A model generated the notes under the pieces. The model was not told the origin of the DNA, searched no databases, and saw only the letters and a program-made list of their open reading frames with translations. This document shows positions 22,965 to 58,035 of a stretch of 64,000 nucleotides of DNA, piece after piece. The translations under genes and the position numbers were made by a program. The stretch lies in assembly GCA_011088215.1 (NCBI GenBank), contig JAALKD010000003.1, positions 29,763 through 93,762 on the forward strand, in the 5' to 3' direction. Within the stretch, counting starts at the first letter, position 1; each line of letters starts with the position of its first letter. Source of the DNA: Sphingomonadales bacterium. GTDB lineage: Bacteria; Pseudomonadota; Alphaproteobacteria; Sphingomonadales; Kordiimonadaceae.

Positions 22965-22988
22965 GTATTAATGTTATTTCAATAATAC
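22965..22988. promoter_or_regulatory. 24-bp interrupted palindrome, candidate operator
   Basis: GTATTAATGTTATTTCAATAATAC, upstream of the TonB receptor; near-identical to the inverted 19315-19338 site. Confidence 0.7.
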
Positions 22989-41803: not shown

Positions 41804-41815
41804 TCGTCACTCCAG

Positions 41816-42349: not shown

Positions 42350-42404
42350 CACAGACCGTGCTCGTTGAATAAATGCAAAATTGCAGGAGAGGCACAAGTA
42401 AAAA

Positions 42405-42872: not shown

Positions 42873-42884
42873 TGCATTTCCTTT

Positions 42885-42910
42885 TGTTATATAGATATAC
42901 TTATATAACA
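42885..42910. promoter_or_regulatory. Inverted repeat in the divergent VOC promoter
   Basis: TGTTATATA-N8-TATATAACA inside a 66-bp divergent spacer; half-sites resemble the TGWTATA motif. Confidence 0.55.
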
Positions 42911-42938
42911 TTTAGGTACGCCGAGTAAAGAAACCGAT

Positions 42939-43430
42939 ATGGAAAAACCTGACCTACATTTGCTAGACAGTCCGCTTTTGAAGCGAACCACAATCCGGGT
43001 GCGCGATATGGACAAAGCCGTCGCTTTTTATGAGCGTGTGATTGGTATGAAGAAATACTATGATAATGAAGTTTTACTGGATCGCCACTTTTTACCCGGC
43101 GAAAAACCCGGCGACAAAATCCATTTGGTCATCATGCAGGGCAGCGACCCCGTGATCGGTATGGTTGGCTTACTCAAGTGGCTTGAACCCCAGCAAACGC
43201 CGCCACCGGTTTCATACGACTTTGAATTTGGCCAGCCGGTATTTGTTGTGCAAACGCCGGATGCTCAAGCCCTATATGCAAAAGCCAAAGAATCGGGCTG
43301 CAAAATAACTTCTGCACTTACGGAAACTGAATATCCAGCCGCAAATGGCGGCACAGTCAAAGTTCGCTCGGTCGGACTTTTTGACCCCGACGGCCATTTT
43401 TTTGAATGTAACCAACGGTTGGCCTGTTAA
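42939..43430 (+). CDS. VOC-family protein
   Basis: KRTTIRVRDMDKAVAFYERVIGM and FDPDGHFFECNQ. Confidence 0.85.
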   Translation: MEKPDLHLLDSPLLKRTTIRVRDMDKAVAFYERVIGMKKYYDNEVLLDRHFLPGEKPGDKIHLVIMQGSDPVIGMVGLLKWLEPQQTPPPVSYDFEFGQPVFVVQTPDAQALYAKAKESGCKITSALTETEYPAANGGTVKVRSVGLFDPDGHFFECNQRLAC

Positions 43431-43460
43431 CACCAACTATAATTTTTTGAAGGATCCCCA

Positions 43461-43925
43461 ATGACCGCAATGATCAAACGCACCACACTTAAAGTGCGCG
43501 ACATGGAAAAATCAATCGCCTTTTATGAAGGCGTTATTGGTATGTCCAAATATTATGACAATGAAATTACCCTGACTGGCAACTTACTGCCCGGCGGCGG
43601 CAAAGGCGATGTTACTCGCCTTGTCATCATGCAGGGCGAAGATCCTGTTATTGGCATGATAGGGTTGTTGGAATGGCTTAGCCCCAAGCCGGATGCGCCG
43701 GAAATTCCCTATGATTTTGATTTTGGCAACCCAGTGTTTGTTGCAGCAGTGGACGACGCCGAAGAGGCCTACGCCAAAGCACAAGCCCTGAACTGTGTTA
43801 TTCGTGCGCCCCTCAGCGAAGGTGAGTATCCGGGAGCCAACGGTGGTATTGTCAAAGTTCGTTCCGTAGGCGTTTTTGACCCCGACGGTCATTTTTTCGA
43901 ACTGAACCAACGACTGGAAGGCTAG
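43461..43925 (+). CDS. VOC-family protein (tandem paralog of 42939-43430)
   Basis: KRTTLKVRDMEKSIAFYEGVIGM and FDPDGHFFELNQ. Confidence 0.85.
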   Translation: MTAMIKRTTLKVRDMEKSIAFYEGVIGMSKYYDNEITLTGNLLPGGGKGDVTRLVIMQGEDPVIGMIGLLEWLSPKPDAPEIPYDFDFGNPVFVAAVDDAEEAYAKAQALNCVIRAPLSEGEYPGANGGIVKVRSVGVFDPDGHFFELNQRLEG

Positions 43926-43930
43926 GTCGA

Positions 43931-45295
43931 CTAGTCGATAAACTTCGCTAGTTCCGAACGGTAAGCCCTGCCAATAAAACCGGAAAACAACAGAATCGTG
44001 CCGCTATATAAAAGCGGCACCAACGACATGGAGTATCGGATTAGGCTTTCGTCACCGAACAGAAAGTCCGTGAAGAGTGGTACAACGGAAGGTCCTATTA
44101 GCAGCCCTGTCATGCTGATGAACATATAGTATAGAGCAACAGCCTGCCCGCGCAGTTCACTGGGTAAAATCGCCAGCAACGCGGTGATGCCCCCAGCGGT
44201 TACCATGGTAAAGCCGACATTGGCGAACTGCGATATGATAAAGGCAGTCCAGACATCCGGCATAAGCGGGAAGATCACACTTGAAACCACGAGCACGCCC
44301 AGCCCGGCCTGTGTAATGACAAACGGCATGTCATGCCGCCCCTTCTGATTGAAATGATCAATCACCCACCCCCAAAACAGGATGGAAGTTGGCGCCAAAA
44401 TTAGAAGGACCGAACCATTATAATTGCTGAAGGTTGACGCGCTCCAACCCCACGTGCGTTCAAACAACGGAGGCAACCACATGCTGGTATAGGCTATTGC
44501 AGTCATACCAGACACCATTACCGTAATACCCAGCAGGGGCAGTTTATGCCCCCAAATATAGCCAAGTGTTTGCCTAAATGTTGCAGCGCCTTTACCGCCG
44601 GTGGCAGAAAGCTTGGTTTGTTTGCGCGGGGGTTCTTTGACTGTTAAAAACACAAGGCCCAAAAGAATACCGGGAAAGCCAACCGCCAGGAACACAACCT
44701 GCCAGGGTTTGTCTACGCCGATAAATGCGAGATACGACAGGTCTGCCGTTTCGGCATAATCGAGGATGGCACCAACAACGAGATAGGCTATCGCCGAACC
44801 GACCCCCAACGCCATGGAATAGAAGGCGATTGCCTTTGCCCGTCGTTCAGGCGCAAACAGATCAGAGATTAGTGACATCGCGCTGGGGCTGAGAGCAGCC
44901 TCTCCGAAACCAACGGCCATGCGCGCCACAAACAGTTGGGCAAATCCGCGAGCAATTCCTGTTGCCATCGTCGCGACAGACCAGAGAATGGCACCCAGTG
45001 CAACAATGAATTTGCGTGGTTTACGGTCCACCAACCAGCCAAGCGGGATACCCATCGTCGCATAAAAAATGGCAAACGCCGCGCCGCCAAGCAACCCCAT
45101 ATTGGTATCAGACAGTCCCAGGTCTGCTTTCATTGGTTCCAAAACCAACCCAAGCACGATCCGGTCAATATAGGAGAAAATATAAGCGACTGTAAGCAAG
45201 ACAACCACATACCAACCGTAGCTTTCGCTAAGGTGCTCCCCTTTATCCGGACCACTAGGCGACTGTGCTTCGTTTGATTTTGGTGCGTCTGTCAT
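43931..45295 (-). CDS. MFS transporter (spinster-like)
   Basis: YIFSYIDRIVLG, GWLVDRKPRK, ARMAVGFGEAALSP. SD GGGGAG before ATG 45295. Confidence 0.9.
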   Translation of the reverse strand: MTDAPKSNEAQSPSGPDKGEHLSESYGWYVVVLLTVAYIFSYIDRIVLGLVLEPMKADLGLSDTNMGLLGGAAFAIFYATMGIPLGWLVDRKPRKFIVALGAILWSVATMATGIARGFAQLFVARMAVGFGEAALSPSAMSLISDLFAPERRAKAIAFYSMALGVGSAIAYLVVGAILDYAETADLSYLAFIGVDKPWQVVFLAVGFPGILLGLVFLTVKEPPRKQTKLSATGGKGAATFRQTLGYIWGHKLPLLGITVMVSGMTAIAYTSMWLPPLFERTWGWSASTFSNYNGSVLLILAPTSILFWGWVIDHFNQKGRHDMPFVITQAGLGVLVVSSVIFPLMPDVWTAFIISQFANVGFTMVTAGGITALLAILPSELRGQAVALYYMFISMTGLLIGPSVVPLFTDFLFGDESLIRYSMSLVPLLYSGTILLFSGFIGRAYRSELAKFID

Positions 45296-45455
45296 GAGCC
45301 ATTCTCCCCGCTGTGACCAGACGGTCACTTACTCGATTCGTCAATTGTTATATCTTTATCACAACTTTTACCAGTTCATTGACGTGTATCAATGCAGGAA
45401 GCGAGTTCATTTCTGACTATGCTGGCGAGAAAAGCTCGTACGCAGGGAGAGAGCA

Positions 45456-46175
45456 ATGGACACCTATTTTAATTTTCTTGGCATGGAGATCCCGCTGCAC
45501 GATGTGCTCCGGTGGGTGCATATTATTCTAGCCGCCTATTGGCTGGGCGGGGAATGGGGTGTGTTTAACGCATCCAAATTTGTCGCGGACCGCACCCTCA
45601 CGCTGGAGGAGAGACGACGCCACATGAAGACAGCTGTGATGATAGATATTTTGCCGCGTTCAGCCATCATTTGGCTGCTGCCAGTTGGTTTTCACATGTC
45701 TGATAACTTGGGGCTCTCACCGGTAAGCGGCATATGGGTAACGGTTGCCTGGGTTGTAACAGCCGCCTGGTGGTGGTTCCTGATTTGGGGGGCTTTCAAA
45801 AATGCAGGAACCGATACATATGTTCGCCTAACCGAAATTGATAATAAGATCAGATGGGTGCTTATTCCGTCACTGATCTTCGCGGGTGCATATACGATGG
45901 TAACAGGTAATGTCCTGTTTACCGGCGAGGAAGCCGGGCAATATTGGTTCAGCTTTAAGCTAACCTTCTTTGGATTCATCCTGATCATTGGCCTGTATCT
46001 GCGCTATGTAATGACCGACTGGGTTGGCGCCTTCAAGACGTTGGAACAAGACGGACCAAATGACGAGGTCGAGGATCATATTTCCGGCACCCTTAGCCAA
46101 GCCAAAAAGATCGCTTATCTATATTGGATCAGCATCGGCACTATGGCGTTTGTTGGAGTGACGAAGGCTTTCTGA
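45456..46175 (+). CDS. Integral membrane protein of unknown function (about 5-6 TM)
   Basis: 239 aa with hydrophobic helices, WVHIILAAYWLGG in the first helix, SD GGGAGAG and its own terminator. Confidence 0.8.
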   Translation: MDTYFNFLGMEIPLHDVLRWVHIILAAYWLGGEWGVFNASKFVADRTLTLEERRRHMKTAVMIDILPRSAIIWLLPVGFHMSDNLGLSPVSGIWVTVAWVVTAAWWWFLIWGAFKNAGTDTYVRLTEIDNKIRWVLIPSLIFAGAYTMVTGNVLFTGEEAGQYWFSFKLTFFGFILIIGLYLRYVMTDWVGAFKTLEQDGPNDEVEDHISGTLSQAKKIAYLYWISIGTMAFVGVTKAF

Positions 46176-46196
46176 TACTCCCCTTTATGTCAGAAC

Positions 46197-46228
46197 AAAA
46201 AAGGCGGGTATCATGTGCCCGCCTTTTT
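46197..46228 (+). terminator. Intrinsic terminator
   Basis: AAAAAAGGCGGGTA-TCATG-TGCCCGCCTTTTT, 21 bp after the stop. Confidence 0.85.
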
Positions 46229-46245
46229 CCTACCATCACTAAATC

Positions 46246-46329
46246 ACGGGTTTTGATTCTGAAAACACCAGGTTTGATTCTGATTTTAGGCGGTTTGTCT
46301 CCGATTTTGGCCAGTTGGGTTTAGATTTT
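46246..46329. repeat. Four imperfect 21-bp tandem repeats
   Basis: ACGGGTTTTGATTCTGAAAAC / ACCAGGTTTGATTCTGATTTT / AGGCGGTTTGTCTCCGATTTT / GGCCAGTTGGGTTTAGATTTT. Confidence 0.7.
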
Positions 46330-46419
46330 TGTGCCTTAATGTCTCAAATTTGGACGAACGCTGCCCGGACATACCCAAAATTCCAACAAATTGACTGCAT
46401 TCAATCAGAAATAATTGAT

Positions 46420-46439
46420 TATATTGATATATCAATATA
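46420..46439. promoter_or_regulatory. Perfect 20-bp palindrome, candidate GntR/HutC-type operator
   Basis: TATATTGATATATCAATATA, 35 bp upstream of the DUF1838-leuCD operon. Confidence 0.8.
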
Positions 46440-46474
46440 TTATTTAAGAGAACTTAGCAGAGAGGAGACATCAG

Positions 46475-47404
46475 ATGATGATGTGTAAAATAAAATCAGG
46501 GCAATCAGTTCTGAAACGCGCGGCAGCGGCCACAATTGGTACGCTCTTGATTAGCGCGACAGCGGGGGCTGCACCAATTGACCTGAATACGCCGGAAGGC
46601 GCAACCATGGCCAACCGCAAAATTCAATGTTCAACCGAAGATAACAAGCCTGTTCTCTATACATGGGAAGGCGCTGTTTTTTCTCGCCGCATGGGCGAGT
46701 CAGACAAACGCATGTTCAAAACTGTCGGCATGAACATTCGCGCCTGCGTAACCGTGGACGGCGGCAAAAAAGGTGTGGGTTACCGTTTGGTAACTCGCGA
46801 AATCCTATTGTATCTGGACCCAAAAACCGGTGAAGCGCTTGAAACCTGGGACAATCCCTGGACCAACACCACCGTCAATGTATTGCATGTTGCAAACGAC
46901 CCAGTTAATCAGCGCGCCAGCTTCCCCTACGATGATGAAGGCAAACCTCGTGCCCGTTGGTTTGGTCGAAACCAGAACGATACCTGGTTCCTAACCGCTC
47001 CGGTGCCCCTATTTTACCACAATGAGTTGGGCGGCGAATACCAGCCCTATGTTGGCGGTGCATACCACGCGACCGAGCTATTTAACTTTATAGGTGACCT
47101 GGACAGTCTGACCAGTGAAGACACCGACACAGCTGAGACTACAGTTGGTTGGGTGCGCATCTCTGACTGGTTGCCTTGGATGGAAATGCAAGGCCGGGAG
47201 GGTATTATATATATCCACGCCGCAGGTCAAAAAGTTGATTCGTTTGACGACATGCCAGATGTCATGAAACGATATATTGCCGAGAAAGAGCCAGACTATG
47301 TTAGACCTCCTCCCGGCGATGATGATCGCCCCAATGAGACCAGCTGGACCTATTTCAAGAAAAAGCTGAAAGGTGGCAAACTGCCACGCGGCGGCCACAA
47401 CTAA
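46475..47404 (+). CDS. DUF1838-like protein with signal peptide
   Basis: KRAAAATIGTLLISATAGA signal peptide; YLDPKTGE..ETWDNPWT..TVNVLHVANDPVN and WVRISDWLPWMEM. Family recalled from memory. Confidence 0.7.
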   Translation: MMMCKIKSGQSVLKRAAAATIGTLLISATAGAAPIDLNTPEGATMANRKIQCSTEDNKPVLYTWEGAVFSRRMGESDKRMFKTVGMNIRACVTVDGGKKGVGYRLVTREILLYLDPKTGEALETWDNPWTNTTVNVLHVANDPVNQRASFPYDDEGKPRARWFGRNQNDTWFLTAPVPLFYHNELGGEYQPYVGGAYHATELFNFIGDLDSLTSEDTDTAETTVGWVRISDWLPWMEMQGREGIIYIHAAGQKVDSFDDMPDVMKRYIAEKEPDYVRPPPGDDDRPNETSWTYFKKKLKGGKLPRGGHN

Positions 47405-47427
47405 CCGTCTGGAGCTACACCAACACT

Positions 47428-48819
47428 ATGCCAAAAACGCTGTTTGATAAGCTATGGGACGCGCATGTTGTTGGCGATCTCGGCGACGGCAATGCACTCC
47501 TGTATATCGACCGGATATTCTTACATGAACGTACCGGCAGCGTTGCTCTAAAAAGCCTGGAGGAAGGCGGACGCAAAGTCCGCTTTCCAGCCCATGTTTT
47601 CGGTGTTATGGACCATATCGTCGACACCCAAATTGGGCGTACCGACACCACTCAAATGCCTAGCGGAAAGCAGTTTATTTCGGCAATGCGTAGTGGCTGC
47701 AATTGGGCGGGCATCCGGCTATTTGATATCAATGACCCTGATCAGGGCATCGTTCACGTAATTTCACCTGAAAAGGGTATCGTCCTGCCTGGCCTTTCGC
47801 TTGTTTGCCCTGACAGCCACACCTGTTCACAAGGCGCTTTCGGCGCACTGGCATGGGGCATCGGCTCCTCTGAGGCGGAACATGCTCTCGCCACAAACAC
47901 GCTCAGAGCCGCCAAGCCAAAGGCCTTGCGCATAACCATCAACGGTGACACCGACAACAATGTCACCGCAAAGGATATTATCCTGGCCGTGATTGCCAAA
48001 ATCGGCACAAACGGTGCTGCGGGATATGCAATAGAATTCACCGGCAGCGCGGTTGATGCCATGGATATGGAAGCGCGCATGACCCTGTGTAACATGGCCG
48101 TTGAGCTGTCTGCCTTCACCGCCATAATCGCCCCCGACGCGACAACAGTGTCCTATTTGAAAAACAAGGAATACGCGCCTAAAGGTGCTATGTGGGAGCA
48201 AGCAAAGGCTGACTGGAAAACACTTAAAAGCGACCCGTCGGCACTCTTTAGCCAGACAATAGAGATTAATGCGTCAGACATCAAAACCATGGTTTCCTGG
48301 GGCACCAGTCCAGAACAGTCTGTGACTGCCACCTCCCGTGTTCCGACGCCGCAGTCCAAAGACGACGAACAAGCTTTGATCTACATGGACCTTGTACCCG
48401 AAATCCGGCTTTCGGACATTAAGATAGATGCCGCCTTCATCGGATCCTGCACTAACGGACGCCTTTCAGACCTCCGCGCGGCAGCCGCTATTTTAAAAAA
48501 CAACCACATCAAAGAGAATATAACAGCCATCTGTGTGCCAGGCTCCATGGCGGTGAAAATGGCGGCGGAGGCTGAGGGGCTCGATAAAATATTTACAGAA
48601 GCCGGTTTTGAGTGGCGATTGCCCGGCTGCTCCATGTGTTTTTATGCGGGCGGAGAAAGCTTCGGCCCAAATGCTCGCGTGATATCGACGACAAACCGAA
48701 ATTTTGAGAACCGGCAAGGACCCGGTACACGCACCCATATCGCAAGCCCGGCAACGGTGGCCGCGTCGGCGATCAATGGTAAAATCTGCGGGCCAAATGA
48801 ACTAGAGACTGGACGATGA
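47428..48819 (+). CDS. leuC: LeuC-like aconitase-family dehydratase/hydratase, large subunit
   Basis: KTLFDKLWDAH, CPDSHT, [4Fe-4S] Cys motifs GSCTNGR and GCSMC, STTNRNFENRQG. HERTGSVAL replaces the canonical HEVTSPQAF. Confidence 0.92.
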   Translation: MPKTLFDKLWDAHVVGDLGDGNALLYIDRIFLHERTGSVALKSLEEGGRKVRFPAHVFGVMDHIVDTQIGRTDTTQMPSGKQFISAMRSGCNWAGIRLFDINDPDQGIVHVISPEKGIVLPGLSLVCPDSHTCSQGAFGALAWGIGSSEAEHALATNTLRAAKPKALRITINGDTDNNVTAKDIILAVIAKIGTNGAAGYAIEFTGSAVDAMDMEARMTLCNMAVELSAFTAIIAPDATTVSYLKNKEYAPKGAMWEQAKADWKTLKSDPSALFSQTIEINASDIKTMVSWGTSPEQSVTATSRVPTPQSKDDEQALIYMDLVPEIRLSDIKIDAAFIGSCTNGRLSDLRAAAAILKNNHIKENITAICVPGSMAVKMAAEAEGLDKIFTEAGFEWRLPGCSMCFYAGGESFGPNARVISTTNRNFENRQGPGTRTHIASPATVAASAINGKICGPNELETGR

Positions 48820-49421
48820 AATCTGTAAATGTCATCCGAGGCGTTGCCGCCCCCATGTTTGAAGCCAACGTCGATACCGATGTGATCATTCCGTCTCGCG
48901 AAATGAAACAAGTGTCGAAAACCGGCCTGTCAAAGGGGCTGTTTGCCGGTCGCCGTTACATGAACTTCGAGACGCGAGAAATCAACCCGTCGTTTGTCTT
49001 AAATCAACCTGAATTTTCTTCCGCCGTCATTTTGCTGACAGATCAGAATTTCGGCTGCGGCTCCTCTCGCGAACATGCGGTATGGGCGTTGTTGGAGTAT
49101 GGCATCCAAGCCATCATTGCGCCCTCATTTGGCTCAATTTTCTACAAAAATTGCATTAATAATGGGCTTCTGCCGGCGACTATGGACCGAAGTACTGTTA
49201 TGAACCTTGTCAAACAATCAGGCAGTGAGTTTGCAATCAGCCTCAGCAACCAGACAATCACAGTCGCAGGGCAATTCTCGGTGACGTTTGACATAAACGA
49301 GAGCGACAAAAAACTCTTGATGGCGGGCCTTGATCCGATAGACCAAGCGCTGACATATAGTAAAGAGATTGAAGCTTTCGAAACAGCCAGGCAAACCAGC
49401 CACCCTTGGCTTGTGCTTTAA
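48816..49421 (+). CDS. leuD: LeuD-like small subunit
   Basis: NVDTDVIIP, NFGCGSSREHAVWAL, SFGSIFYKNCINNGLLP; ATGA overlap with leuC. Confidence 0.92.
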   Translation: MKSVNVIRGVAAPMFEANVDTDVIIPSREMKQVSKTGLSKGLFAGRRYMNFETREINPSFVLNQPEFSSAVILLTDQNFGCGSSREHAVWALLEYGIQAIIAPSFGSIFYKNCINNGLLPATMDRSTVMNLVKQSGSEFAISLSNQTITVAGQFSVTFDINESDKKLLMAGLDPIDQALTYSKEIEAFETARQTSHPWLVL

Positions 49422-49423
49422 GT

Positions 49424-49759
49424 TCAATAGGACTTGCCACCAACTGCGTCGCCGAGCGCACCTCTGAATAATTGAAATTCAATTTTCTCCCAGATACCCG
49501 CGTTAAAATAGGGGTCAGCTTCCAAAATAGCCCGGGCTTCATCTTGGTCGTCTGTCTTATAAATCAGCAGTGAGCCAATCACCGTCTTTTTGTCGTCCCC
49601 AAAAATGGGCCCGGCGATCAAAACTTTGTCGAGAATGGTTTCAACATACTGCAAATGCCCATCCAAAAATTCTGCCCGTGCCTTAACTGCCGCTTCGCCG
49701 GGCGCATCGCTACATTTGGCCATCACAAATAGTTTGCGGTTTTCATTACTGATCGGCAT
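49424..49759 (-). CDS. YciI-family protein
   Basis: RAEFLDGHLQY, LIAGP, GSLLIY, ARAILEADPYF. Confidence 0.88.
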   Translation of the reverse strand: MPISNENRKLFVMAKCSDAPGEAAVKARAEFLDGHLQYVETILDKVLIAGPIFGDDKKTVIGSLLIYKTDDQDEARAILEADPYFNAGIWEKIEFQLFRGALGDAVGGKSY

Positions 49760-49767
49760 AGGGCCTC

Positions 49768-50712
49768 CTATTCTACGTAGCCGTCCGGGTAACCTTTTGG
49801 CAATCCGGCGTCAGGCACAAATCCATAAAGGGGTTCGCCCGGCAAAGCTGCAGATACAATTTTTCGCACATCAAGTAGCTTCTCAAGATTAACTCCGGTT
49901 TCCAGTCCCATACTATCGAGCATATAAACTAGGTCTTCGGTAACAATGTTTCCGCTGGCGCCAGGCGCAAACGGGCACCCGCCAATGCCGCCCAGCGATG
50001 CATCAAATGTCGTAATACCAACTTCAAGACCCGCAAGGACATTTGCCAGACCTACACCCCGTGTGTTGTGTAGGTGCAGACCGTTAAGTTTATCTTCTCC
50101 GACCACATCTTTAACCGCTTTAACCAGACGTTTTACATGTGTTGGTGTCGCGTAACCAGTGGTGTCTGACAGTCCAACTTCATCGCAGCCGGCTTGCATC
50201 AATTGTTCCGCTAGACTCAATATCTCGGCCTCATCAATCGGGCCTTCAAGGGTGCAGCCAAAAGCAGTCGAAAGTCCACCCTCAAAGAATGGTCGCTCGC
50301 CTTCAGGCTGCGCCGCAATCATACCGGCAATAGCCGTTGCTTCATCGATCATTTGTTTGTGAGTGCGCCGTACGTTCTCCAAACTATGAGTCTCACTAAC
50401 CGATAGTGGGATAGTGATTTTGTCAACGCTTGCTCGCACCGCGTTTTCCGCACCTTTCAGGTTAGGAACCAAAACCGCAACTTTCAAACCCGGTAGCGTT
50501 TTAGCAAAAGCCACCAGCTCTGCGGTATCAGCAAGCTGAGGCAAGAGGCTCGCAGGCACAAATGAGCCTACTTCAATTTCAGGCACGCCCGCTTCAAACT
50601 CTGCTTTGATCCATGCTTTTTTGGCCTCAAGCGGCATAATGCGATCGATACTCTGTAATCCGTCGCGCGGCCCGACTTCACTGACTTCAATCACTGATTT
50701 CTTCCTGTTCAT
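49768..50712 (-). CDS. Second HMG-CoA-lyase-family acyl-CoA lyase
   Basis: EVGPRDGLQS, LSDTTG, HLHNTRGVG, GGIGGCPFAPGASGNIVTEDL. Confidence 0.92.
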   Translation of the reverse strand: MNRKKSVIEVSEVGPRDGLQSIDRIMPLEAKKAWIKAEFEAGVPEIEVGSFVPASLLPQLADTAELVAFAKTLPGLKVAVLVPNLKGAENAVRASVDKITIPLSVSETHSLENVRRTHKQMIDEATAIAGMIAAQPEGERPFFEGGLSTAFGCTLEGPIDEAEILSLAEQLMQAGCDEVGLSDTTGYATPTHVKRLVKAVKDVVGEDKLNGLHLHNTRGVGLANVLAGLEVGITTFDASLGGIGGCPFAPGASGNIVTEDLVYMLDSMGLETGVNLEKLLDVRKIVSAALPGEPLYGFVPDAGLPKGYPDGYVE

Positions 50713-50770
50713 CACAAACACCTGACGCCTTAACATCAAATTCGAGTTGTCAAAATTATTTAATTGATCT

Positions 50771-50784
50771 ATTGTTATACCAAT
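50771..50784. promoter_or_regulatory. ATTG-N-TATA-N-CAAT operator copy
   Basis: ATTGTTATACCAAT between the divergent lyase and CoA-transferase genes. Confidence 0.7.
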
Positions 50785-50875
50785 CAATGTTTTCGGTGCA
50801 AGAGTAGAGTTGAATTGCGTCTAAATTTGCAGCGAACAATCCAATACTGCGCACCATAGTAGGGACCGAATATAA

Positions 50876-52069
50876 ATGGCCGGCAAGCTTCAGCGCCCCT
50901 TAAGTGGGATCAAAGTTATCGAATTTACCCATATGGTAATGGGGCCAACGGTTGGACTGATTTTGGCGGACCTTGGTGCTGACGTGATCAAGATTGAACC
51001 AACTAAAGGTGACAATACCCGCCGACTTATCGGGTCGGGCGCAGGTTATTTTCCAATGTACAACCGCAATAAGCGTAGTATTTGCCTCGATATTAAAACC
51101 GAACGCGGCAAAGAAATTGCCAACAAGCTTATCGAAAAGGCAGACGTGTTCGTCGAAAACTTCCGACCGGGCGCCATGGACAAACTGGGTTTCAGCTATG
51201 ACGCCGTGTTTACCAACAACCCCAAACTGGTTTACTGTTCGGAAAAAGGATTTCTATCCGGCCCTTATGAAGACCGTGCCGCATTAGATGAAGTCGCACA
51301 GATGATGGGCGGTCTGGCTTATATGACTGGTCCGCCCGGCCGCCCGCTGCGCGCGGGTGCCAGCGTAACCGATGTTACTGGCGGCATGTTCGGGGCTATT
51401 GCTATTCTTGCTGCACTGGAAGAACGTCATCGCACAGGCAAAGGCCAATATGTCAAAAGCTCACTTTATGAAACAAGCGCCTTCCTGGTTGGGCAGCATA
51501 TGGCTCAATATGCAGTTACAGGTACGGCCGCTCGCCCCATGGCGGCTCGGATTTCTGCCTGGGCTATCTACGATATTTTTGAGACTTCAGATAATGATCA
51601 GGTCTTCGTGGGGGTAGTAAGTGATACCCAGTGGCGTCTATTTTGCGATGCATTCGATCTGTCAGAATTAGCCGAACACCAAGACTATGCACAAAACGCG
51701 GCACGAGTGGCAAAGCGCGATGAACTTATTCCAAAGATCGCCGGGATTTTCAAAAATTATACAAAAGCAGCATTGATGGAAAAGTTGGAATCGGCCGGAT
51801 TACCTTTCGCCCCAATCAACAGACCCGAAGATTTGTTCGATGACCCGCATTTAAGCGCTGGTGACAGTCTTATTGATGTTTCCTTATCCGATGGCGCCAA
51901 GGCGTCACTGCCTGCACTTCCAATCGAAATGGCTGGGAAACGCCCTGACCTCTATCAGGATCTGCCCGGCATCGGTGAACATACAAACAGCGTATTGGAA
52001 GAGATCGGTTATTCGTCCGAGGAAATTGAAATATTGGCGACTGACTTGGTAACAAAACGCTCAGGCTAG
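50876..52069 (+). CDS. Class III CoA-transferase (CaiB/BaiF)
   Basis: MVMGPTVG, VIKIEP, NRNKRSICLD, ENFRPGAMDKLG, SVTDVTGG. Confidence 0.92.
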   Translation: MAGKLQRPLSGIKVIEFTHMVMGPTVGLILADLGADVIKIEPTKGDNTRRLIGSGAGYFPMYNRNKRSICLDIKTERGKEIANKLIEKADVFVENFRPGAMDKLGFSYDAVFTNNPKLVYCSEKGFLSGPYEDRAALDEVAQMMGGLAYMTGPPGRPLRAGASVTDVTGGMFGAIAILAALEERHRTGKGQYVKSSLYETSAFLVGQHMAQYAVTGTAARPMAARISAWAIYDIFETSDNDQVFVGVVSDTQWRLFCDAFDLSELAEHQDYAQNAARVAKRDELIPKIAGIFKNYTKAALMEKLESAGLPFAPINRPEDLFDDPHLSAGDSLIDVSLSDGAKASLPALPIEMAGKRPDLYQDLPGIGEHTNSVLEEIGYSSEEIEILATDLVTKRSG

Positions 52070-53079
52070 CTTACGTGAACGATTTGCTTGCCTACGTTTT
52101 TACCGTCATAAAGCCGGATCAAAGCTGTTGGCATCATCTCTAGCCCCTCCAGTCGGTCTTCCTGATAGGTCAAATCACCACTAGCAATCCATTCCGCCAT
52201 TGTCGCCTCGGCTTCAGCAAACATCGGCGCATAGTCATAAACGAAAAAGCCCTGCATTTTAGCGCACATATGGCCGATTTCGCCCCAGTTCCGCAATCGG
52301 TAAGGCTCATCGTTCAAATATTCTGATATACGCCCACAACAAATGATCCGAGCATATTTGTTAATATGCAACAGCACTTGGTCAAGGATCGAGCCGCCTA
52401 CATTGTCGAAGAAAATATCGACCCCGTCCGGCGTCACTTGAGAAAGCGCTTCGCCAACGTCCTGATCACGGTAATTGATCGTCGCGTGGCACCCCAGTTT
52501 TTCCTCGAGCAAACGACATTTTTCGTTTGAGCCAGCAATGCCGATGACCCTGCAGCCCATGAGGCGTGCCAATTGCACCGCTGTGCTCCCAACACCGCCA
52601 AGCGCGCCTGAGACAACAACGGTTTCACCTTTCTTGGGTTTGCCAATATCCTTCAACGCGCAGTAGGAAGTAAAGCCAGTCATGCCGAGTACACCCAGGC
52701 CTGTGGCAATCGGCGCGACAGTTTGGCGAATGGCAAACATCAGACTACCCGGCGCGCCGTCCGCTACCGCATAATCCTGCCAGCCAAGCTTTCCTTGCAC
52801 GATTGTGCCAACGGGCCATTCGGTATTGCGGCTTTCGACAATTTCACCAACACCGCGGCCGCGCATCACATCACCGATTGCCAGAGGTTCTTCGATACCC
52901 GCACCATCAATCATGTAATTGCGCATAACCGGGGCAACCGAGAGATAGCGTGTGCGAAGTAGAAATTCGCCCTTCTCAATTGAAGGAATGGCTTTTTCCT
53001 GCAGGCTAAAGTCACTCTCTTTAACTGCGCCCACCGGGCGAGCTGCGAGACACCACTGTCGGTTTACTTTTACGGTCAT
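52066..53079 (-). CDS. Second NADP-dependent alkenal/ene reductase (MDR, prostaglandin-reductase-like)
   Basis: YLSVAP, LGVLGMTGFTSY, VSGALGGVGS, FFDNVGG, GKNVGKQIV. SD AAGGA. Confidence 0.9.
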   Translation of the reverse strand: MTVKVNRQWCLAARPVGAVKESDFSLQEKAIPSIEKGEFLLRTRYLSVAPVMRNYMIDGAGIEEPLAIGDVMRGRGVGEIVESRNTEWPVGTIVQGKLGWQDYAVADGAPGSLMFAIRQTVAPIATGLGVLGMTGFTSYCALKDIGKPKKGETVVVSGALGGVGSTAVQLARLMGCRVIGIAGSNEKCRLLEEKLGCHATINYRDQDVGEALSQVTPDGVDIFFDNVGGSILDQVLLHINKYARIICCGRISEYLNDEPYRLRNWGEIGHMCAKMQGFFVYDYAPMFAEAEATMAEWIASGDLTYQEDRLEGLEMMPTALIRLYDGKNVGKQIVHVS

Positions 53080-53189
53080 ACTTGTTTCCTTCACCGGAGT
53101 AAGCATGAAGAGAGAATACACTCGCTATGATGTAGATCATTTCCGCGCCGCATACCGTATAGCAGGCTCCGAAAAAAGGAGATTAACCT

Positions 53190-54002: not shown

Positions 54003-54010
54003 GCCACTTT

Positions 54011-54313
54011 TCATGAGCTGTTTTTTATCACGCTTATTTTTGTGCAGCTTGCCTGTATCCAACGAAGGTTGATGGCAACCCTGTCGCTATCTGGCTCGGC
54101 CCAGGCATTTGACACGGCGCGGTCCTGAATCCGGATCTCGTGTTCCATCAAAATAGACTTGCTCCATATTGTCAAACTCGCCCTCAAGCTAGGAAACCAT
54201 GGTATTAAAATCGCGCTTCAATACATCGGATTTATCAATCACTTCAGCAGGGTGGCCAATCCAATCAAACATGCGGTTGATAAAATCAACATACGTTTCA
54301 ACATCTTACTCAT
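54011..54313 (-). pseudogene. Remnant of a secreted CpcT/CpeT-like (bilin-lyase-family) gene
   Basis: ATG 54313 after GAGAGGA gives MSKMLKRMLILSTACLIGLAT. A frameshift leads into PAEVIDKSDVLKRDFNTMVS*LEGEFDNMEQVYF (TAG at 54191-54189). A second shift leads into DRAVSNAWAEPDSDRVAINLRWIQASCT, ending at TGA 54013-54011. Family assignment is from recalled N- and C-terminal motifs. Confidence 0.6.
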
Positions 54314-54379
54314 TTTAAAATCCTCTCCCTCTCAACACTCTGGCTAAGCCTGTATATTTACAAGTTAATTAATTGACAT

Positions 54380-54393
54380 ACTATTATATCAAT
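54380..54393 (-). promoter_or_regulatory. Degenerate operator copy upstream of the TonB receptor
   Basis: ATTGATATAATAGT on the minus strand, within the near-palindrome TACTATTATATCAATAGTA (54379-54397). Confidence 0.5.
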
Positions 54394-54513
54394 AGTACAA
54401 GTAATTAGCGCTGAGATCCAAACAATTGCGTAATTTTGATATGTCGTGGTTGCCAAAAAGTATCCAGCCGGGGAGTGAACCTAATTCAACGATCCTTATC
54501 GGAGGGGTATCAA

Positions 54514-56922
54514 ATGATTTACAAAAACAGACTGATGGCAACGGCGGCGATGAGCGTCGTGCTAGCTGTTCCCAGTCTTTCATCGTCTGTTTCAGCTCAA
54601 AATGCTGACGCCGACGACTTCGCAATTGAAGAAATTATTATTACATCGCGCAAGCAAGCCGCGAGCCTGCAGGACACGCCGATTGCGATCACAGCATTCA
54701 ACACTGAACAGATGATTCAGGCGGGCTTCAACAATATTATAGATGTCGCCAAAGCAACACCGGGTTTGTTTATCGAAGGCTATAATGATCGCAATGCGCG
54801 AGTTGCCACATCGCCGCGCTTCCGCGGCATCACCGTTGACAACAGCGACCCACTGCTGCGTACAGCTTCTGTCTTCATCGACGGGATATATGTGTCGGGC
54901 GGCATTCAGGGCCTCGGGGTTCAGGAACTGGAACGAATTGAAATTATTAAGGGCCCGCAATCTGCACTATTTGGGCGGAACACCTTTGCCGGTGCCATCA
55001 ACTATATTACCAAAGATCCAGGGGAAGAATTCAAGGTTGATATTTCAGGTCTTGCCGCCACCCGCGATGAATATCGTGGCTCCATCGGCATCGAAGGCGG
55101 CAGCGAAACTGTTACTGCCAGATTGAATGCAAGCTATGATTTTGTCGGCGGCCATTATGATAATGCCAACGACCTCGATCAGGAATTAGGCGAAGAGAGC
55201 ACATGGTCGATCAGTGGTACTTTGCTGTTTAAGCCAAATGAAAACTGGCGCGTAAAAGTACGCGGTCTTTACTATGAAGATGATGATGGCCCTGGAGCAG
55301 TTGCCCGCGTTGGCGGTTTTGCCGAGCATAACTTTGGCGGCTTCCCAGATGGCAACGGCGGCACGACTGAACGCGCTTTCCAGGGAACGCTCAGGATTCC
55401 GGACGATAGCGAAGTAGGCGCTAATACAACGGCAGCAGATTTTGATGCCGCGCTTGCTGCCCTCGCCAATCTGGGCACTGCAACAGACGTTGGTATCACG
55501 CTGGAAGAACTTGGCGGCTACGGCTTGAAACGGGAAGCTTACCGCGGCAGCTTCGATAGTTCGTACGATTTTGATAATGGCATGTCGTTTGATGTGCTGT
55601 TTGGTTACAACAAAGAAACTTATCTGTTCTTTGGTGATTTCGACAGTACTGGAACCTTCGGTTTCAATACATCCGGCACAAGCGATCTGGAAGATATCAG
55701 CATTGAATCCCGCCTCTCAGGAAAAGCTTTTGACGACAAGCTGACCTGGACAGTCGGAGGTAACTATTTAGACATTGATATCCTAACCGCTGGCGGCTTC
55801 TATGACGGCATTCTGGATTTCTGGTTCTCAGGTGTTATCGGGCCGGCGAATGCAACCGGCGCCAAAACAAAAGGTATCTTTACCACGCTGGACTATCAAA
55901 TTAACGAACAGTTTCAGTTGATCTTTGAGGGTCGTTACCAGGACGACGAAATTACCAACGCTGCTGTAACAAACGGTGTTGCGTCTTTTGACAAGTTCCT
56001 ACCGCGCGTGGTGTTAAACTATACGCCAAACGACGACACTCTGCTGTATGCTAACTACAGTGTCGGCAACCTTCCTGGCGGATTTAATGCTGAAGTCGCA
56101 GAGCTGGATGCAGAGCAATTGCGTCAGCTGGAAATTGACAACCCCGGCATCGACAGTTCGTTTAACGAGGAAAAACTCGAAAACTACGAACTGGGTTGGA
56201 AACAATATTTCAACGATCGGCGCGGCGTATTCAATTTGGCGGCCTTCTACATGAAACGAAGTGACCAGATTTTCTCTGGCTTTGCCTTCATTGATGAAAC
56301 CGACCCCAACGCACCCAATCCGGTTCGCACAGTGGCCTTCACTGGTAACGGTGCAACAACCAATATTTACGGGCTCGAATTAGACACCACCGTTAACCTG
56401 TCTGAAGCGCTAACCTTCCAAGGCTCGCTGTCATACATCGATGCCAAGATCGCAAGCTTCCCGGAAGGTGGTGGGTCTGGTGACTTCGGTGATGTGTTCG
56501 GCGACGATGCTGATGTAACAGGCCAGCGGGCACCGCGCTTCCCGAAATGGGCGTGGTCAGCAAACATGACATACGAAAAGCCGCTAGAAGCCAATTTCAT
56601 GGGTATGGAAGACGGTGTTTGGTTCACACGGGCAGACGTGTTCTATACGGGGTCGTTTTTCGACAGCAACACCAATCTGGCTGAAACGCAAACAGCCTAC
56701 GATGTAAACCTACGGACGGGCGTTCGTAACGGCGATATGTCGGTCGAGATTTATGTGTCAAACTTGTTCGGTGAAGATGCGCCGAGTTCTGCGAACAACA
56801 TCGCAGACACCAGTGCTGATGTGAGATTCGGCAGCGGCTTCTTCGACTTCTCGCAAGAAAGTATCCATGTTGCATTGCGCCGCAAACGCCAGTTTGGCAT
56901 GCGCTTCAACTATACATTCTAA
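54514..56922 (+). CDS. TonB-dependent receptor
   Basis: SD GGAGGGG, signal peptide, IEEIIITSRKQAASLQDTPIAI, RIEIIKGPQSALFGRNTFAGAINY, C-terminal RQFGMRFNYTF. Confidence 0.95.
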   Translation: MIYKNRLMATAAMSVVLAVPSLSSSVSAQNADADDFAIEEIIITSRKQAASLQDTPIAITAFNTEQMIQAGFNNIIDVAKATPGLFIEGYNDRNARVATSPRFRGITVDNSDPLLRTASVFIDGIYVSGGIQGLGVQELERIEIIKGPQSALFGRNTFAGAINYITKDPGEEFKVDISGLAATRDEYRGSIGIEGGSETVTARLNASYDFVGGHYDNANDLDQELGEESTWSISGTLLFKPNENWRVKVRGLYYEDDDGPGAVARVGGFAEHNFGGFPDGNGGTTERAFQGTLRIPDDSEVGANTTAADFDAALAALANLGTATDVGITLEELGGYGLKREAYRGSFDSSYDFDNGMSFDVLFGYNKETYLFFGDFDSTGTFGFNTSGTSDLEDISIESRLSGKAFDDKLTWTVGGNYLDIDILTAGGFYDGILDFWFSGVIGPANATGAKTKGIFTTLDYQINEQFQLIFEGRYQDDEITNAAVTNGVASFDKFLPRVVLNYTPNDDTLLYANYSVGNLPGGFNAEVAELDAEQLRQLEIDNPGIDSSFNEEKLENYELGWKQYFNDRRGVFNLAAFYMKRSDQIFSGFAFIDETDPNAPNPVRTVAFTGNGATTNIYGLELDTTVNLSEALTFQGSLSYIDAKIASFPEGGGSGDFGDVFGDDADVTGQRAPRFPKWAWSANMTYEKPLEANFMGMEDGVWFTRADVFYTGSFFDSNTNLAETQTAYDVNLRTGVRNGDMSVEIYVSNLFGEDAPSSANNIADTSADVRFGSGFFDFSQESIHVALRRKRQFGMRFNYTF

Positions 56923-57035
56923 GACAACGACCCCGGATGCAATCTGCAACCGGGGTTAACTAACCCTATTTTGTTTTGAGTATAGTCTCGGCTTCTAAAA
57001 TATATCTATTTTAGAGCCACCCTTCATGAAACTTC

Positions 57036-57064
57036 AAAGCCAGCTATAGTAGCTGGCTTTTTTT
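57036..57064. terminator. Bidirectional intrinsic terminator
   Basis: AAAGCCAGCTA-TAG-TAGCTGGCTTTTTTT. Two further hairpins lie upstream at 56930-56956 and 56990-57018. Confidence 0.85.
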
Positions 57065-57089
57065 CTCAGGTTCGTATCGACGGCATGCC

Positions 57090-57902
57090 CTAAGTTTCGG
57101 CTTTCCAAAAATTCGACTCTTCACCTTCGATACGCGCCAAACTCATATTCAGCTGATACAGATCAGGACGGTAAAGCACCGTAATAAATTCAACTGGTCG
57201 ATCATTACCGTCAAATACCACACGCATCACTTTCAAAAGTGGACTACCAACATTGACCCCAAGCGCTGGCGCGGTCTTACCGTCCGCCAATGTCGCAGTA
57301 ATAGACTGCCGAGCGCGCGAAATGCGCACACCGGCGCGCTCCAGAAGCGCAAGCAATGGCTGATTTTCCATCTCATCACGCTCAAAAGAATGTCCAATAT
57401 CCGCAGGCACGTATGTTTCAACAAATGAAAAGGGCGTATCATCTTTATGCCGAACCCGAATAGCGCGTTGCACCGAAGCCCCAACTTCAATATCAAGTGC
57501 CTCGGCCGCGCGCGGCGGTGCGCCCACATAATCAAATTCCAAGATTACAACATGAGTTTCCTGGGCAATGGTCAACAGGTTTTCGAGCAACCCATCCATT
57601 GTCTCTGCGCTTTTAGAGGGTACTGGTGTGGAAAAGGTTACCACTGTGCCGCGGCCGCGCTGGCGCGCAACCAAACCATCTGCAGCAAGTTCATCCAGCG
57701 CGCGTTTAGCCGTAATCCGTGACACGCCAAAAACTTTTTCAATCTCATGCTCACTCGGGATCAAAGAACCATCAGTATAGTCGCCAGAAACAATTTTCTC
57801 CCTGAGCAAGACATAAATCTGATGATACAGCGGTGTAGGCAAATCCTCACTGACCCGCTCGGTTGCCGAGAAGGATAACATTGACGACGTTTTTTTGTTC
57901 AT
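57090..57902 (-). CDS. GntR-family regulator (HutC subfamily, UTRA domain)
   Basis: PLYHQIYVLLREKI..G...IPSEHEI...FGVSRITAKRAL..L...G.VARQRGRGTVV plus UTRA-type C-terminus. Confidence 0.92.
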   Translation of the reverse strand: MNKKTSSMLSFSATERVSEDLPTPLYHQIYVLLREKIVSGDYTDGSLIPSEHEIEKVFGVSRITAKRALDELAADGLVARQRGRGTVVTFSTPVPSKSAETMDGLLENLLTIAQETHVVILEFDYVGAPPRAAEALDIEVGASVQRAIRVRHKDDTPFSFVETYVPADIGHSFERDEMENQPLLALLERAGVRISRARQSITATLADGKTAPALGVNVGSPLLKVMRVVFDGNDRPVEFITVLYRPDLYQLNMSLARIEGEESNFWKAET

Positions 57903-58021
57903 AGACCCCACCAAAAATTACTCAAGGACAAGAAGGTTGCCAAAAATTTCGCCTGAGCCCCTCACGCGAATTTAAGTGGCTATTGATGTGCATCAACGCC
58001 CGTCCACTTCAATCTACCTAT

Positions 58022-58035
58022 ATTGATATATCATT
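58022..58035. promoter_or_regulatory. ATTG-N-TATA-N-CAAT operator copy
   Basis: ATTGATATATCATT, sharing 15 consecutive bases (TATATTGATATATCA) with the 46420 palindrome; lies in the promoter divergent from the HutC-type regulator. Confidence 0.75.

What the first reader, a model, noticed from the sequence alone, without database searches (positions are those of the whole stretch)
42883..58035. A repeated ATTG-N-TATA-N-CAAT operator marks a regulon across the right half
Seen: ATTGATATATCAAT (46423), ATTGTTATACCAAT (50771), ATTGATATATCATT (58022), ATTGTTATATCTTT (45344), and weaker copies at 54380-54393 and 42899-42912 (both minus strand). All lie in promoter regions, one in the regulator's own divergent promoter. 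Inference: the HutC-type GntR (57090-57902) co-regulates the VOC, MFS, DUF1838-leuCD, lyase/CoA-transferase, TonB receptor and ALDH operons, so its effector would be the pathway substrate or an intermediate.
Basis: partly seen in the sequence, partly recalled or inferred. Interest (0 to 1): 0.65.

Follow-up and report, generated by a model that had tools for sequence, protein, structure and literature searches.

The report
Operator of a local GntR repressor
A 14-base palindrome (ATTGwTATAwCAAT) really does mark five to seven promoters of an accessory catabolic gene island in a marine Kordiimonas bacterium. Comparison with related genomes indicates it is the binding site of the island's own HutC-type GntR regulator, which is an ordinary kind of bacterial gene switch controlling a pathway of unknown substrate.

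Summary
The exact palindrome ATTGNTATANCAAT occurs twice in the 4.0-Mb genome, both times in this stretch. Three of the nine one-mismatch copies are also here.

Five sites lie in promoter regions:
- MFS|hyp239
- upstream of DUF1838-leuCD
- HMGL-lyase|CoA-transferase
- upstream of the TonB receptor
- GntR|DUF1330-ALDH

In five other Kordiimonas genomes, and in Luteithermobacter, Emcibacter, a genome encoding the Eilatimonas protein and a TARA scaffold, the same sites sit at the same positions. They form invariant islands in otherwise diverged spacers: 83% of motif columns are invariant against 19% of other columns.

Homologs of the regulator at 42-57% identity, in unrelated gene contexts, carry the same TGwTATAwCA core upstream of their own gene. 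The motif therefore follows the GntR protein and not its neighbours. It keeps the GT-N4-AC spacing typical of HutC-subfamily operators and overlaps predicted core promoter elements, which points to repression.

- A seventh conserved site on another contig, in front of a second TonB receptor.
- A separate FNR-type box (TTGAy-N4-rTCAA) at two of these promoters, plus an island-encoded Fnr-like regulator.

The VOC site has a different, composite architecture and remains uncertain. The effector is unknown. This is a new member of a known kind and of modest interest.

The parts
57090..57902 (-). Gene for the GntR-family regulator of the HutC subfamily (winged helix plus UTRA domain); the proposed binder of the palindrome.
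   Evidence: Pfam GntR 67.3 bits and UTRA 113.9 bits. It is below the equivalog cut-offs for HutC and PhnF. Orthologs at 81-83% identity are found in 5 of 31 other Kordiimonas genomes.
58022..58035 (.). Operator ATTGATATATCATT in the divergent GntR | DUF1330-ALDH promoter (the autoregulatory site).
   Evidence: 13 of 14 columns are invariant across 7 genomes in a spacer that otherwise does not align (10% invariant). The sequence is identical in Luteithermobacter.
46423..46436 (.). Operator ATTGATATATCAAT, 45 bp upstream of the DUF1838-leuC-leuD-like operon; the centre of a perfect 20-bp palindrome.
   Evidence: One of only two exact matches in the genome. 13 of 14 columns are invariant in 5 genomes. 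It lies between the predicted -35 TTGATT and -10 TATTAT.
50771..50784 (.). Operator ATTGTTATACCAAT between the HMGL-like lyase (minus strand, start about 50712) and the family III CoA-transferase (plus strand, 50876).
   Evidence: Exact match. Conserved in 7 genomes, and also in the Emcibacter and TARA clusters. It overlaps predicted promoter hexamers on both strands.
45344..45357 (.). Operator ATTGTTATATCTTT between the MFS transporter (minus strand) and hyp239 (plus strand).
   Evidence: An orthologous site is present in every Kordiimonas relative, as ATTGwTATAwCGAT or a near variant. It lies 35 bp from the FNR-type box in all of them.
54380..54393 (.). Operator ACTATTATATCAAT upstream of the TonB-dependent receptor (right half perfect, left half degenerate).
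   Evidence: 13 of 14 columns are invariant in 6 genomes, against 20% in the rest of the spacer. It lies next to TTGACA and a predicted -10 TACTAT.
42883..42912 (.). TA-rich composite block between VOC1 (minus strand) and VOC2 (plus strand): two outward-facing good half-sites (TTGTTATA ... TATAACA) 16 bp apart. Membership in the regulon is uncertain.
   Evidence: It holds three overlapping 3-mismatch registers. 29 of 30 columns are invariant in 4 genomes, but those genomes are close relatives. The block is unique in the genome.
57983..57998 (.). FNR/FixK-type box ATTGATGTGCATCAAC, 38 bp left of the autoregulatory operator.
   Evidence: Conserved with 38-39 bp spacing in the relatives. If it is centred at -41.5, the GntR operator covers -10 to +4 of the DUF1330-ALDH promoter (inference).
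45378..45393 (.). FNR/FixK-type box ATTGACGTGTATCAAT, 35 bp right of the MFS|hyp239 operator.
   Evidence: Conserved in 5 relatives. If it is centred at -41.5, the operator covers -13 to +1 of the MFS promoter, with -10 TATAAC inside it (inference).
19315..19338 (.). 24-bp site with an AATGTTATATGAAT core (read on the minus strand) upstream of a second MFS gene; possibly an outlying member of the regulon.
   Evidence: It matches the site at 22965-22988 at 22 of 24 positions. It has 1 mismatch to the relaxed consensus, which alone is at background level. GTAT...AATAC flanks recur at the HMGL|CoA-transferase site in Emcibacter, with AATACA alone in the TARA scaffold.
22965..22988 (.). Twin 24-bp site with an AATGTTATTTCAAT core, about 280 bp upstream of another TonB receptor (20478-22682, minus strand).
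   Evidence: Only the left half is conserved upstream of the single ortholog, in G012.

Best explanation
The palindrome ATTGwTATAwCAAT (core TGwTATAwCA) is the operator of the island-encoded GntR/UTRA (HutC-subfamily) regulator.

The regulator most likely binds as a dimer and represses its own gene together with at least five transcription units:
- MFS and hyp239
- DUF1838-leuCD-like
- HMGL-like lyase and CoA-transferase
- the TonB receptor
- DUF1330-ALDH-Amidohydro_2-CoA-transferase-bicupin

A second TonB receptor locus on contig C64 is a likely further target. Repression would work by occupying DNA that overlaps the -35/-10/+1 elements. An unknown small-molecule effector bound by the UTRA domain would release the protein.

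At two divergent promoters, an FNR-type box 35-39 bp away provides a second input. That box is probably bound by the Fnr-like regulator encoded just right of the window.

What is shown: the sites exist, they are unique in the genome, they are conserved, and they co-vary with the GntR gene. What is inferred: binding itself, the sign of regulation, the promoter geometry and the effector.
For: Genome-wide rarity and clustering:
- 2 of 2 exact matches and 3 of 9 one-mismatch matches lie within 12 kb of a 4.0-Mb genome.

Phylogenetic footprints:
- Motif columns are invariant at 58 of 70 positions, against 205 of 1060 for other intergenic columns, across 5-7 genomes.
- Site positions are retained in clusters whose GntR is 62-69% identical: Luteithermobacter, Emcibacter, the contig encoding the Eilatimonas protein and a TARA scaffold.

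Link between the protein and the motif:
- Autoregulatory copies occur upstream of 42-57% identical homologs: <=2 mismatches in 9 of 22 loci against 1 of 110 control windows.
- The neighbours sampled in five of those loci are unrelated, and there is no Crp gene or FNR box.
- A non-syntenic 61% homolog has a perfect AATGATATATCATT 15 bp from its start.
- The winged-helix domain is nearly invariant between this genome and Luteithermobacter.
- Only this one of the four UTRA proteins in the genome has the motif upstream.

Fit to the family and to repression:
- The G-N6-C spacing equals the HutC-subfamily GT-N4-AC rule, and extra adjacent half-site boxes are a known feature of the family (PMC4494728).
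- The sites overlap predicted promoter hexamers.

Seventh site:
- A conserved site lies about 145 bp upstream of the second TonB receptor in all 5 relatives.
Against: - There is no binding, expression or transcription-start data. The tool for finding sequencing runs was unavailable.
- The island and the regulator are present or absent together within the genus, so presence/absence cannot separate the regulator from the island.
- The promoter-like hits in this region are no more numerous than in shuffled sequence (18 against 18.0), so the promoter overlap is suggestive only.
- The central tetranucleotide TATA differs from the HutC-subfamily consensus MTAK.
- The relatives are phylogenetically related, so the Fisher statistic overstates independence.
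- The VOC block and the sites at 19315 and 22965 do not fit the simple 14-mer.
Confidence: 0.8

Rival explanations
1. The palindrome is bound by a different regulator, not the local GntR. Candidates are the island's Fnr-like protein, one of the two LysR or the FCD-type GntR regulators in the window, or another HutC-type paralog acting in trans.
For: The half-site ATTGAT is shared between the 14-mer and the FNR-type box ATTGAy-N4-rTCAAy. The Fnr-like gene is syntenic with the island in all related clusters. The genome encodes three other UTRA proteins.
Against: - A separate box with canonical FNR spacing exists for the Fnr-like protein, whose recognition helix reads ETVSR.
- Loci of distant GntR homologs keep the 14-mer without any Crp gene or FNR box.
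- The FCD-type GntR has its own TTGTATACAW boxes.
- The HutC-type paralog on C36 has its own TCTTATATAAGA sites, and no paralog has the motif upstream.
Confidence: 0.07
2. The GntR protein binds the sites but acts as an activator or dual regulator at some promoters, for example where the site lies upstream of the -35 element as at the C64 TonB receptor.
For: At C64 and its orthologs the site lies immediately upstream of a conserved TTGACT, about 145 bp before the start codon. Promoter assignments are predictions only.
Against: Characterised HutC-subfamily members (HutC, NagR, DasR; abstracts listed) are repressors released by effectors. At four or five sites the operator overlaps the predicted -35/-10/+1 region.
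Confidence: 0.09
3. The elements are not regulator sites at all, but conserved AT-rich core promoter or UP-element sequence that happens to look palindromic.
For: The sites are TA-rich and overlap -10-like hexamers. A relaxed consensus at <=1 mismatch is no more frequent than a reversed control genome-wide (32 against 38).
Against: The conserved positions include the symmetric G4 and C11, while position 5/10 varies freely between A and T. The exact palindrome is unique to the island. The same core recurs upstream of distant GntR homologs in high-GC genomes with unrelated neighbours.
Confidence: 0.04

Closest known systems
HutC, the histidine-utilisation repressor of Pseudomonas and other proteobacteria (GntR family, HutC subfamily)
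   Same: Winged-helix GntR domain plus UTRA domain. The operator is a short AT-rich palindrome with G and C 6 nt apart (PMC4494728). The general model is also the same, as an inference from the family: a local repressor of a catabolic cluster, relieved by a pathway intermediate.
   Different: Not an ortholog: the TIGR02018 score is 110.7 against a cut-off of 220. The operator centre is TATA where the consensus has MTAK. The regulated genes are unrelated to hut: DUF1838-leuCD-like, HMGL-like lyase, CoA-transferases, TonB receptors and ALDH.
NagR (YvoA) of Bacillus subtilis and DasR of Streptomyces coelicolor, with their dre operators
   Same: These are the nearest named proteins with solved structures (E about 1e-21 to 1e-24). 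They are dimeric GntR/HutC repressors that bind palindromes and are released by effectors (PMC4333415, PMC4918961; abstracts).
   Different: The sequence relationship is only remote. They control N-acetylglucosamine metabolism. Their dre consensus, recalled from memory as GGTCTAGACC-like, is not the motif seen here.
HutC-subfamily regulons reconstructed by comparative genomics (Suvorova, Korostelev and Gelfand 2015, PMC4494728; RegPrecise)
   Same: The evidence and the result are of the same kind: an autoregulated local regulator, a palindromic motif in divergent promoters, and weaker extra half-site boxes beside the palindrome.
   Different: No literature hit was found for this motif. All database homologs are named only 'GntR family transcriptional regulator'. 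RegPrecise itself could not be queried.
FNR/FixK-type class II promoters (box TTGAT-N4-ATCAA centred near -41.5)
   Same: The second conserved box has this sequence form. The adjacent Fnr-like protein has cNMP-binding and Crp HTH domains, an ETVSR helix and conserved cysteines.
   Different: The -41.5 placement, the oxygen sensing and the C-x2-C-x7-C comparison rest on memory and inference.

Membership tests
GntR family, HutC subfamily | N-terminal GntR-type winged helix-turn-helix domain | tested here: met
   PF00392 scores 67.3 bits against a cut-off of 27, residues 29-92.
GntR family, HutC subfamily | C-terminal UTRA (chorismate-lyase-fold) effector domain | tested here: met
   PF07702 scores 113.9 bits against a cut-off of 23.8, residues 119-253. 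The best PDB matches are full-length GntR/HutC repressors.
GntR family, HutC subfamily | Palindromic operator of the form NyGTMTAKACNy, with GT and AC 4 nt apart | tested here: inconclusive
   The spacing is met: G-w-TATA-w-C, which reads GT-TATA-AC when w is T/A. The central tetranucleotide is TATA, not MTAK. Binding itself was not tested.
GntR family, HutC subfamily | DNA binding relieved by a small-molecule effector | not testable with these tools
   Requires EMSA or thermal-shift assays with candidate ligands.
HutC proper (histidine utilisation repressor equivalog) | Score above the TIGR02018 equivalog cut-off, and linkage to hut genes | tested here: not met
   110.7 bits against a cut-off of 220. 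No hut genes are among the annotated neighbours.
PhnF (phosphonate regulator equivalog) | Score above the TIGR02325 cut-off | tested here: not met
   104.1 bits against a cut-off of 156.8.
Crp/Fnr family, FNR-like branch (the second regulator, C110:94092-94814, just outside the window) | cNMP-binding-like domain plus Crp-type HTH; E--SR recognition helix; N-terminal and central cysteines; TTGAT-N4-ATCAA target box | tested here: met
   PF00027, PF13545 and PF00325 all match. ETVSR and C-x2-C-x7-C plus a central Cys are conserved in 7 orthologs. The boxes are at 45378 and 57983. Fe-S cluster binding and oxygen sensing were not tested.

The most novel reading that the evidence does not exclude
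The regulon may outline an undescribed catabolic route, jointly controlled by a HutC-type repressor and an island-encoded Fnr-like regulator.

In this reading, an imported compound (taken up by TonB receptors and an MFS transporter) is degraded to a substituted maleate such as citraconate. That product would then be processed by three steps:
1. A LeuCD-like hydratase working with DUF1838.
2. A family III CoA-transferase.
3. An HMGL-like (citramalyl-CoA-type) lyase.

The regulator's effector would be one of these organic-acid intermediates. The conserved linkage of this GntR clade to aconitase-family genes in distant alphaproteobacteria would reflect that.
Probability: 0.25. Interest if true: 0.5.

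Novelty: new member of a known kind. Interest (0 to 1): 0.35.

Why it matters
The finding gives a testable operator, regulon and regulator for an uncharacterised clade of HutC-subfamily GntR proteins that is widespread in marine and soil Alphaproteobacteria.

It also ties several domains of unknown function (DUF1838, DUF1330, DUF4437) and a LeuCD-like enzyme into one co-regulated unit. That narrows the search for their substrate. The regulator and operator could serve as a biosensor once the effector is known.

It does not reveal a new regulatory principle.

Tried and rejected
- **Presence/absence across 32 Kordiimonas genomes.** The exact motif is in 6 of 6 genomes with the regulator and in 1 of 26 without. 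DUF1838 and the island are missing from the same genomes, so the test cannot separate the regulator from the island.
- **Scoring matrix trained on the five sites.** It is circular for those sites. It was useful only for pointing to C64:3363 and the VOC block.
- **Relaxed consensus WWTGWTATAWCAWW.** At <=1 mismatch it gives 32 hits against 38 for a reversed control, so single relaxed hits are not evidence.
- **DNA right of the window (20 kb).** No sites above chance.
- **Literature search for the motif strings.** Only irrelevant hits.
- **DUF1838 literature.** Two papers on antibiotic biosynthetic gene clusters, judged irrelevant from their titles and abstracts and not read.
- **Idea that the changed FNR-like box in Luteithermobacter (AATGAC-N4-GTCATT) reflects a change of specificity.** Rejected, because the ETVSR helix is unchanged. 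It is a tolerated variant, and it is also seen in Emcibacter and the TARA scaffold.
- **Idea that the VOC block is a site of the C36 HutC-type paralog (TCTTATATAAGA).** Rejected, because the sequences differ at the symmetric G/C positions.
Full report
**Setting**

The window is C110:29763-93762 of a 4.0-Mb, 51% GC genome in 147 contigs. The closest public relatives of the regulator are uncultured Kordiimonas assemblies.

The right half of the window is a dense catabolic island (Pfam):

| Coordinates | Strand | Gene |
|---|---|---|
| 39987-43925 | mixed | VOC genes |
| 43931-45328 | - | MFS transporter |
| 45456 | + | 239-aa protein with no family |
| 46475-49421 | + | DUF1838, LeuC-like, LeuD-like |
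| 49768-50787 | - | HMGL-like lyase |
| 50876 | + | family III CoA-transferase |
| 52066-53121 | - | CurA-like reductase |
| 53190 | + | alpha/beta hydrolase |
| 54436 | + | TonB-dependent receptor |
| 57090-57902 | - | GntR/UTRA regulator |
| 58121-64000 | + | DUF1330, ALDH, 243-aa protein, Amidohydro_2, second CoA-transferase, DUF4437 bicupin |

- In the window, ATTGNTATANCAAT at <=2 mismatches occurs 9 times against 3.25 expected. No shuffle reached 9.
- Genome-wide, the exact palindrome occurs twice, at 46423 and 50771. Nine copies have <=1 mismatch, and three of those lie in this stretch.
- The 161 two-mismatch copies genome-wide show that the weaker copies need other support.

After correcting likely start codons, all sites are intergenic. 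The corrected starts are VOC1 at ATG 42872, MFS at ATG 45301 and lyase at ATG 50712.

**Conservation**

The regulator has 81-83% identical orthologs in 5 of 31 other Kordiimonas genomes. It has a 68% ortholog in Luteithermobacter gelatinilyticus.

In all of them the gene order is retained. A copy of the motif sits at each of the same five spacers wherever the fetched stretch covers that spacer:
- MFS|hyp239
- upstream of DUF1838
- lyase|CoA-transferase
- upstream of the TonB receptor
- GntR|DUF1330

Alignments of these spacers show the motif as an invariant island in DNA that is otherwise poorly alignable or not alignable at all. Pooled, 58 of 70 motif columns are invariant against 205 of 1060 other columns. 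The genomes are related, so the nominal P of 8e-28 overstates independence.

Position 5/10 flips freely between A and T, while G4, T6, A7 and their symmetric partners are fixed.

Three further clusters keep relaxed-consensus copies at the orthologous spacers. Their regulators are 62-69% identical:
- Emcibacter sp.
- a TARA Oceans scaffold
- a contig encoding the protein that NCBI names from Eilatimonas milleporae

**Which protein binds it?**

Presence or absence within the genus is uninformative, because island and regulator come and go together. The useful test came from distant homologs.

I examined 22 loci from 21 alphaproteobacterial genomes of other families, with homologs 42-57% identical.
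- The 400 bp upstream of the GntR gene holds a <=2-mismatch copy in 9 loci and a <=3-mismatch copy in 16.
- Equal-sized control windows in the same loci give 1 of 110 and 3 of 110.
- The recurrent form is AATGATATrTCAtT followed by TATAtCA.
- The divergent neighbours sampled in five of these loci differ: a Zn-dehydrogenase, a methyltransferase, an adenylate cyclase, an M24 peptidase and a protein with no family.
- None of the loci has a Crp-family gene, and FNR-type boxes are only sporadic in them.
- A 61% homolog in an unrelated context has a perfect AATGATATATCATT 15 bp before its start.

Other points agree:
- The winged-helix region is almost invariant between this genome and Luteithermobacter, which matches the unchanged autoregulatory site.
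- Of the four UTRA proteins in this genome, only this one has the motif upstream.
- The HutC-type paralog on C36 has its own TCTTATATAAGA sites.
- The FCD-type GntR in the window has its own TTGTATACAW boxes.

**Fit to the family**

The protein has GntR and UTRA domains. It scores below the equivalog cut-offs for HutC and PhnF. It is only remotely similar to NagR and DasR. All database homologs are unnamed.

According to PMC4494728, the HutC-subfamily consensus is NyGTMTAKACNy, with GT and AC 4 nt apart. The present core G-w-TATA-w-C keeps exactly that spacing and reads GT-TATA-AC in many copies. It differs in the central four bases.

The same paper reports weaker extra half-site boxes beside many GntR palindromes. 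Two features seen here fit that description:
- An extra ATTGA/TTGAyy lies 9-10 bp to the left of the DUF1838, lyase|CoA-transferase and TonB-receptor operators. It could equally be the -35 element.
- Several related sites are composites of two 14-mers offset by 8 bp.

**How it probably works**

Predicted sigma-70-like hexamers overlap the operators:
- TTGATT-17-TATTAT around 46423
- TTTACA-16-TACTAT at 54380
- hexamers on both strands at 50771

The scan as a whole finds no more promoter-like hits than in shuffled sequence, so this is only suggestive.

A second conserved palindrome gives an independent handle. ATTGATGTGCATCAAC (57983-57998) and ATTGACGTGTATCAAT (45378-45393) have the FNR/FixK form TTGAy-N4-rTCAA. 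They keep a fixed distance to the GntR operators in all relatives: 38-39 bp and 35 bp.

The best Crp-family gene in the genome lies just right of the window (C110:94092-94814), after the bicupin gene, and is syntenic in every related cluster. Its product has an ETVSR recognition helix and conserved C-x2-C-x7-C plus central cysteines.

Suppose these boxes sit at the usual class II position of -41.5. That position is recalled from memory and was not tested here. The GntR operators would then cover about -13 to +1 of the MFS promoter and -10 to +4 of the DUF1330-ALDH promoter. That is the geometry of a repressor blocking open-complex formation at an activator-dependent promoter.

Repression relieved by a pathway metabolite bound to the UTRA domain is the family norm and remains an inference here.

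**Extent of the regulon**

- *Added.* The best hit outside the training sites is C64:3363, between an IorAB-like molybdenum hydroxylase operon and a second TonB receptor-PepSY pair, next to a DUF1838 paralog. In all five relatives the orthologous spacer carries ATTGATATATCAT(A/G/T), about 145 bp upstream of that receptor.
- *Uncertain: VOC block.* The block at 42883-42912 is invariant in four close genomes. It consists of two good outer half-sites 16 bp apart with degenerate inner halves.
They are 22 of 24 identical, and each has one mismatch to the relaxed consensus. Their GTAT...AATAC flanks recur at the lyase|CoA-transferase site in Emcibacter, with AATACA alone in the TARA scaffold. Only the left half is kept upstream of the single ortholog, in G012.
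- *Not in this genome.* The composite site seen upstream of the CN-hydrolase gene in relatives is absent here.

**Pathway and effector (inference only)**

A LeuCD-like hydratase, a family III CoA-transferase and an HMGL-like lyase together resemble the route citraconate to citramalate to citramalyl-CoA to acetyl-CoA plus pyruvate. That comparison rests on my own knowledge of citramalyl-CoA lyases of the HMGL family.

Several distant homologs of the regulator are followed by an aconitase-family gene. An organic-acid intermediate of that branch is therefore a reasonable first guess for the effector.

**Verdict**

This is a new, well-delimited member of a known class of local repressors, with a likely second input from an Fnr-like regulator. 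Interest is modest. The main value is as functional context for several unknown domains.

Noticed in passing
window 17947-17962, 24165-24180, 45378-45393, 57983-57998; regulator gene at C110:94092-94814 (L028:330-1052): There are four FNR/FixK-type boxes with shared flanks (cATTGAy-N4-rTCAAyG) in the window, out of 34 TTGAY-N4-RTCAA in the genome. An Fnr-like regulator (ETVSR helix, conserved cysteines) is encoded just beyond the window end. This suggests a second, island-wide regulon.
   Followed up: partly
G000 contig C64 (L027) 3521-6058; site at 3363-3382: The second TonB receptor carries an in-frame TAA at codon 507 in this genome only; all five relatives are intact. The operator in front of it has a degraded left half (AATAATATATCAAT against ATTGATATATCAT in relatives). 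The gene may be decaying, or this may be an assembly error.
   Followed up: partly
window 19315-19338 and 22965-22988: Two 24-bp sites are identical at 22 of 24 positions (GTATTAATGTTATwTsAATAATAC). They lie upstream of a second MFS gene and another TonB receptor. Their core is one mismatch from the relaxed operator consensus.
   Followed up: partly
G000 contig C36: 52140, 53247, 56979: The palindrome TCTTATATAAGA occurs three times, and these are the only copies in the genome. All lie around another HutC-type (UTRA) regulator gene. It resembles the SdhR-type motif quoted in PMC4494728 and is probably a separate small regulon.
   Followed up: no
window 28183, 30808, 30831: TTGTATACAW boxes give 4 strand-matches against 0.22 expected. 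They flank the FCD-type GntR (28137, plus strand) and the divergent CoA-transferase | HMGL-like pair, which is a separate GntR module.
   Followed up: partly
relatives G012 and G004 (about 85 bp upstream of the CN-hydrolase ortholog); G000 L028:2108-2303: These two relatives carry a composite 22-bp site (AATGATATATCGATATAACATT or a near variant) upstream of the CN-hydrolase gene. G010 and G022 have a single 14-mer there. This genome has no such site, so regulon membership varies between strains.
   Followed up: partly
L049, L050, L052, L053, L055 (distant GntR homolog loci): In several alphaproteobacterial families the homologous regulator gene is immediately followed by an aconitase-family (LeuC-like) gene of about 425-446 aa. 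This is an evolutionarily conserved link between regulator and hydratase.
   Followed up: partly
relatives, between the CoA-transferase and CurA-like genes (e.g. G012 13654-16549; G022 6842-15982): Relatives carry 3-9 kb of extra DNA between these two genes. In this genome the two genes overlap tail to tail (52066-52069).
   Followed up: no
session: The tool for finding sequencing runs was unavailable, so no expression or transcription-start evidence could be sought.
   Followed up: no
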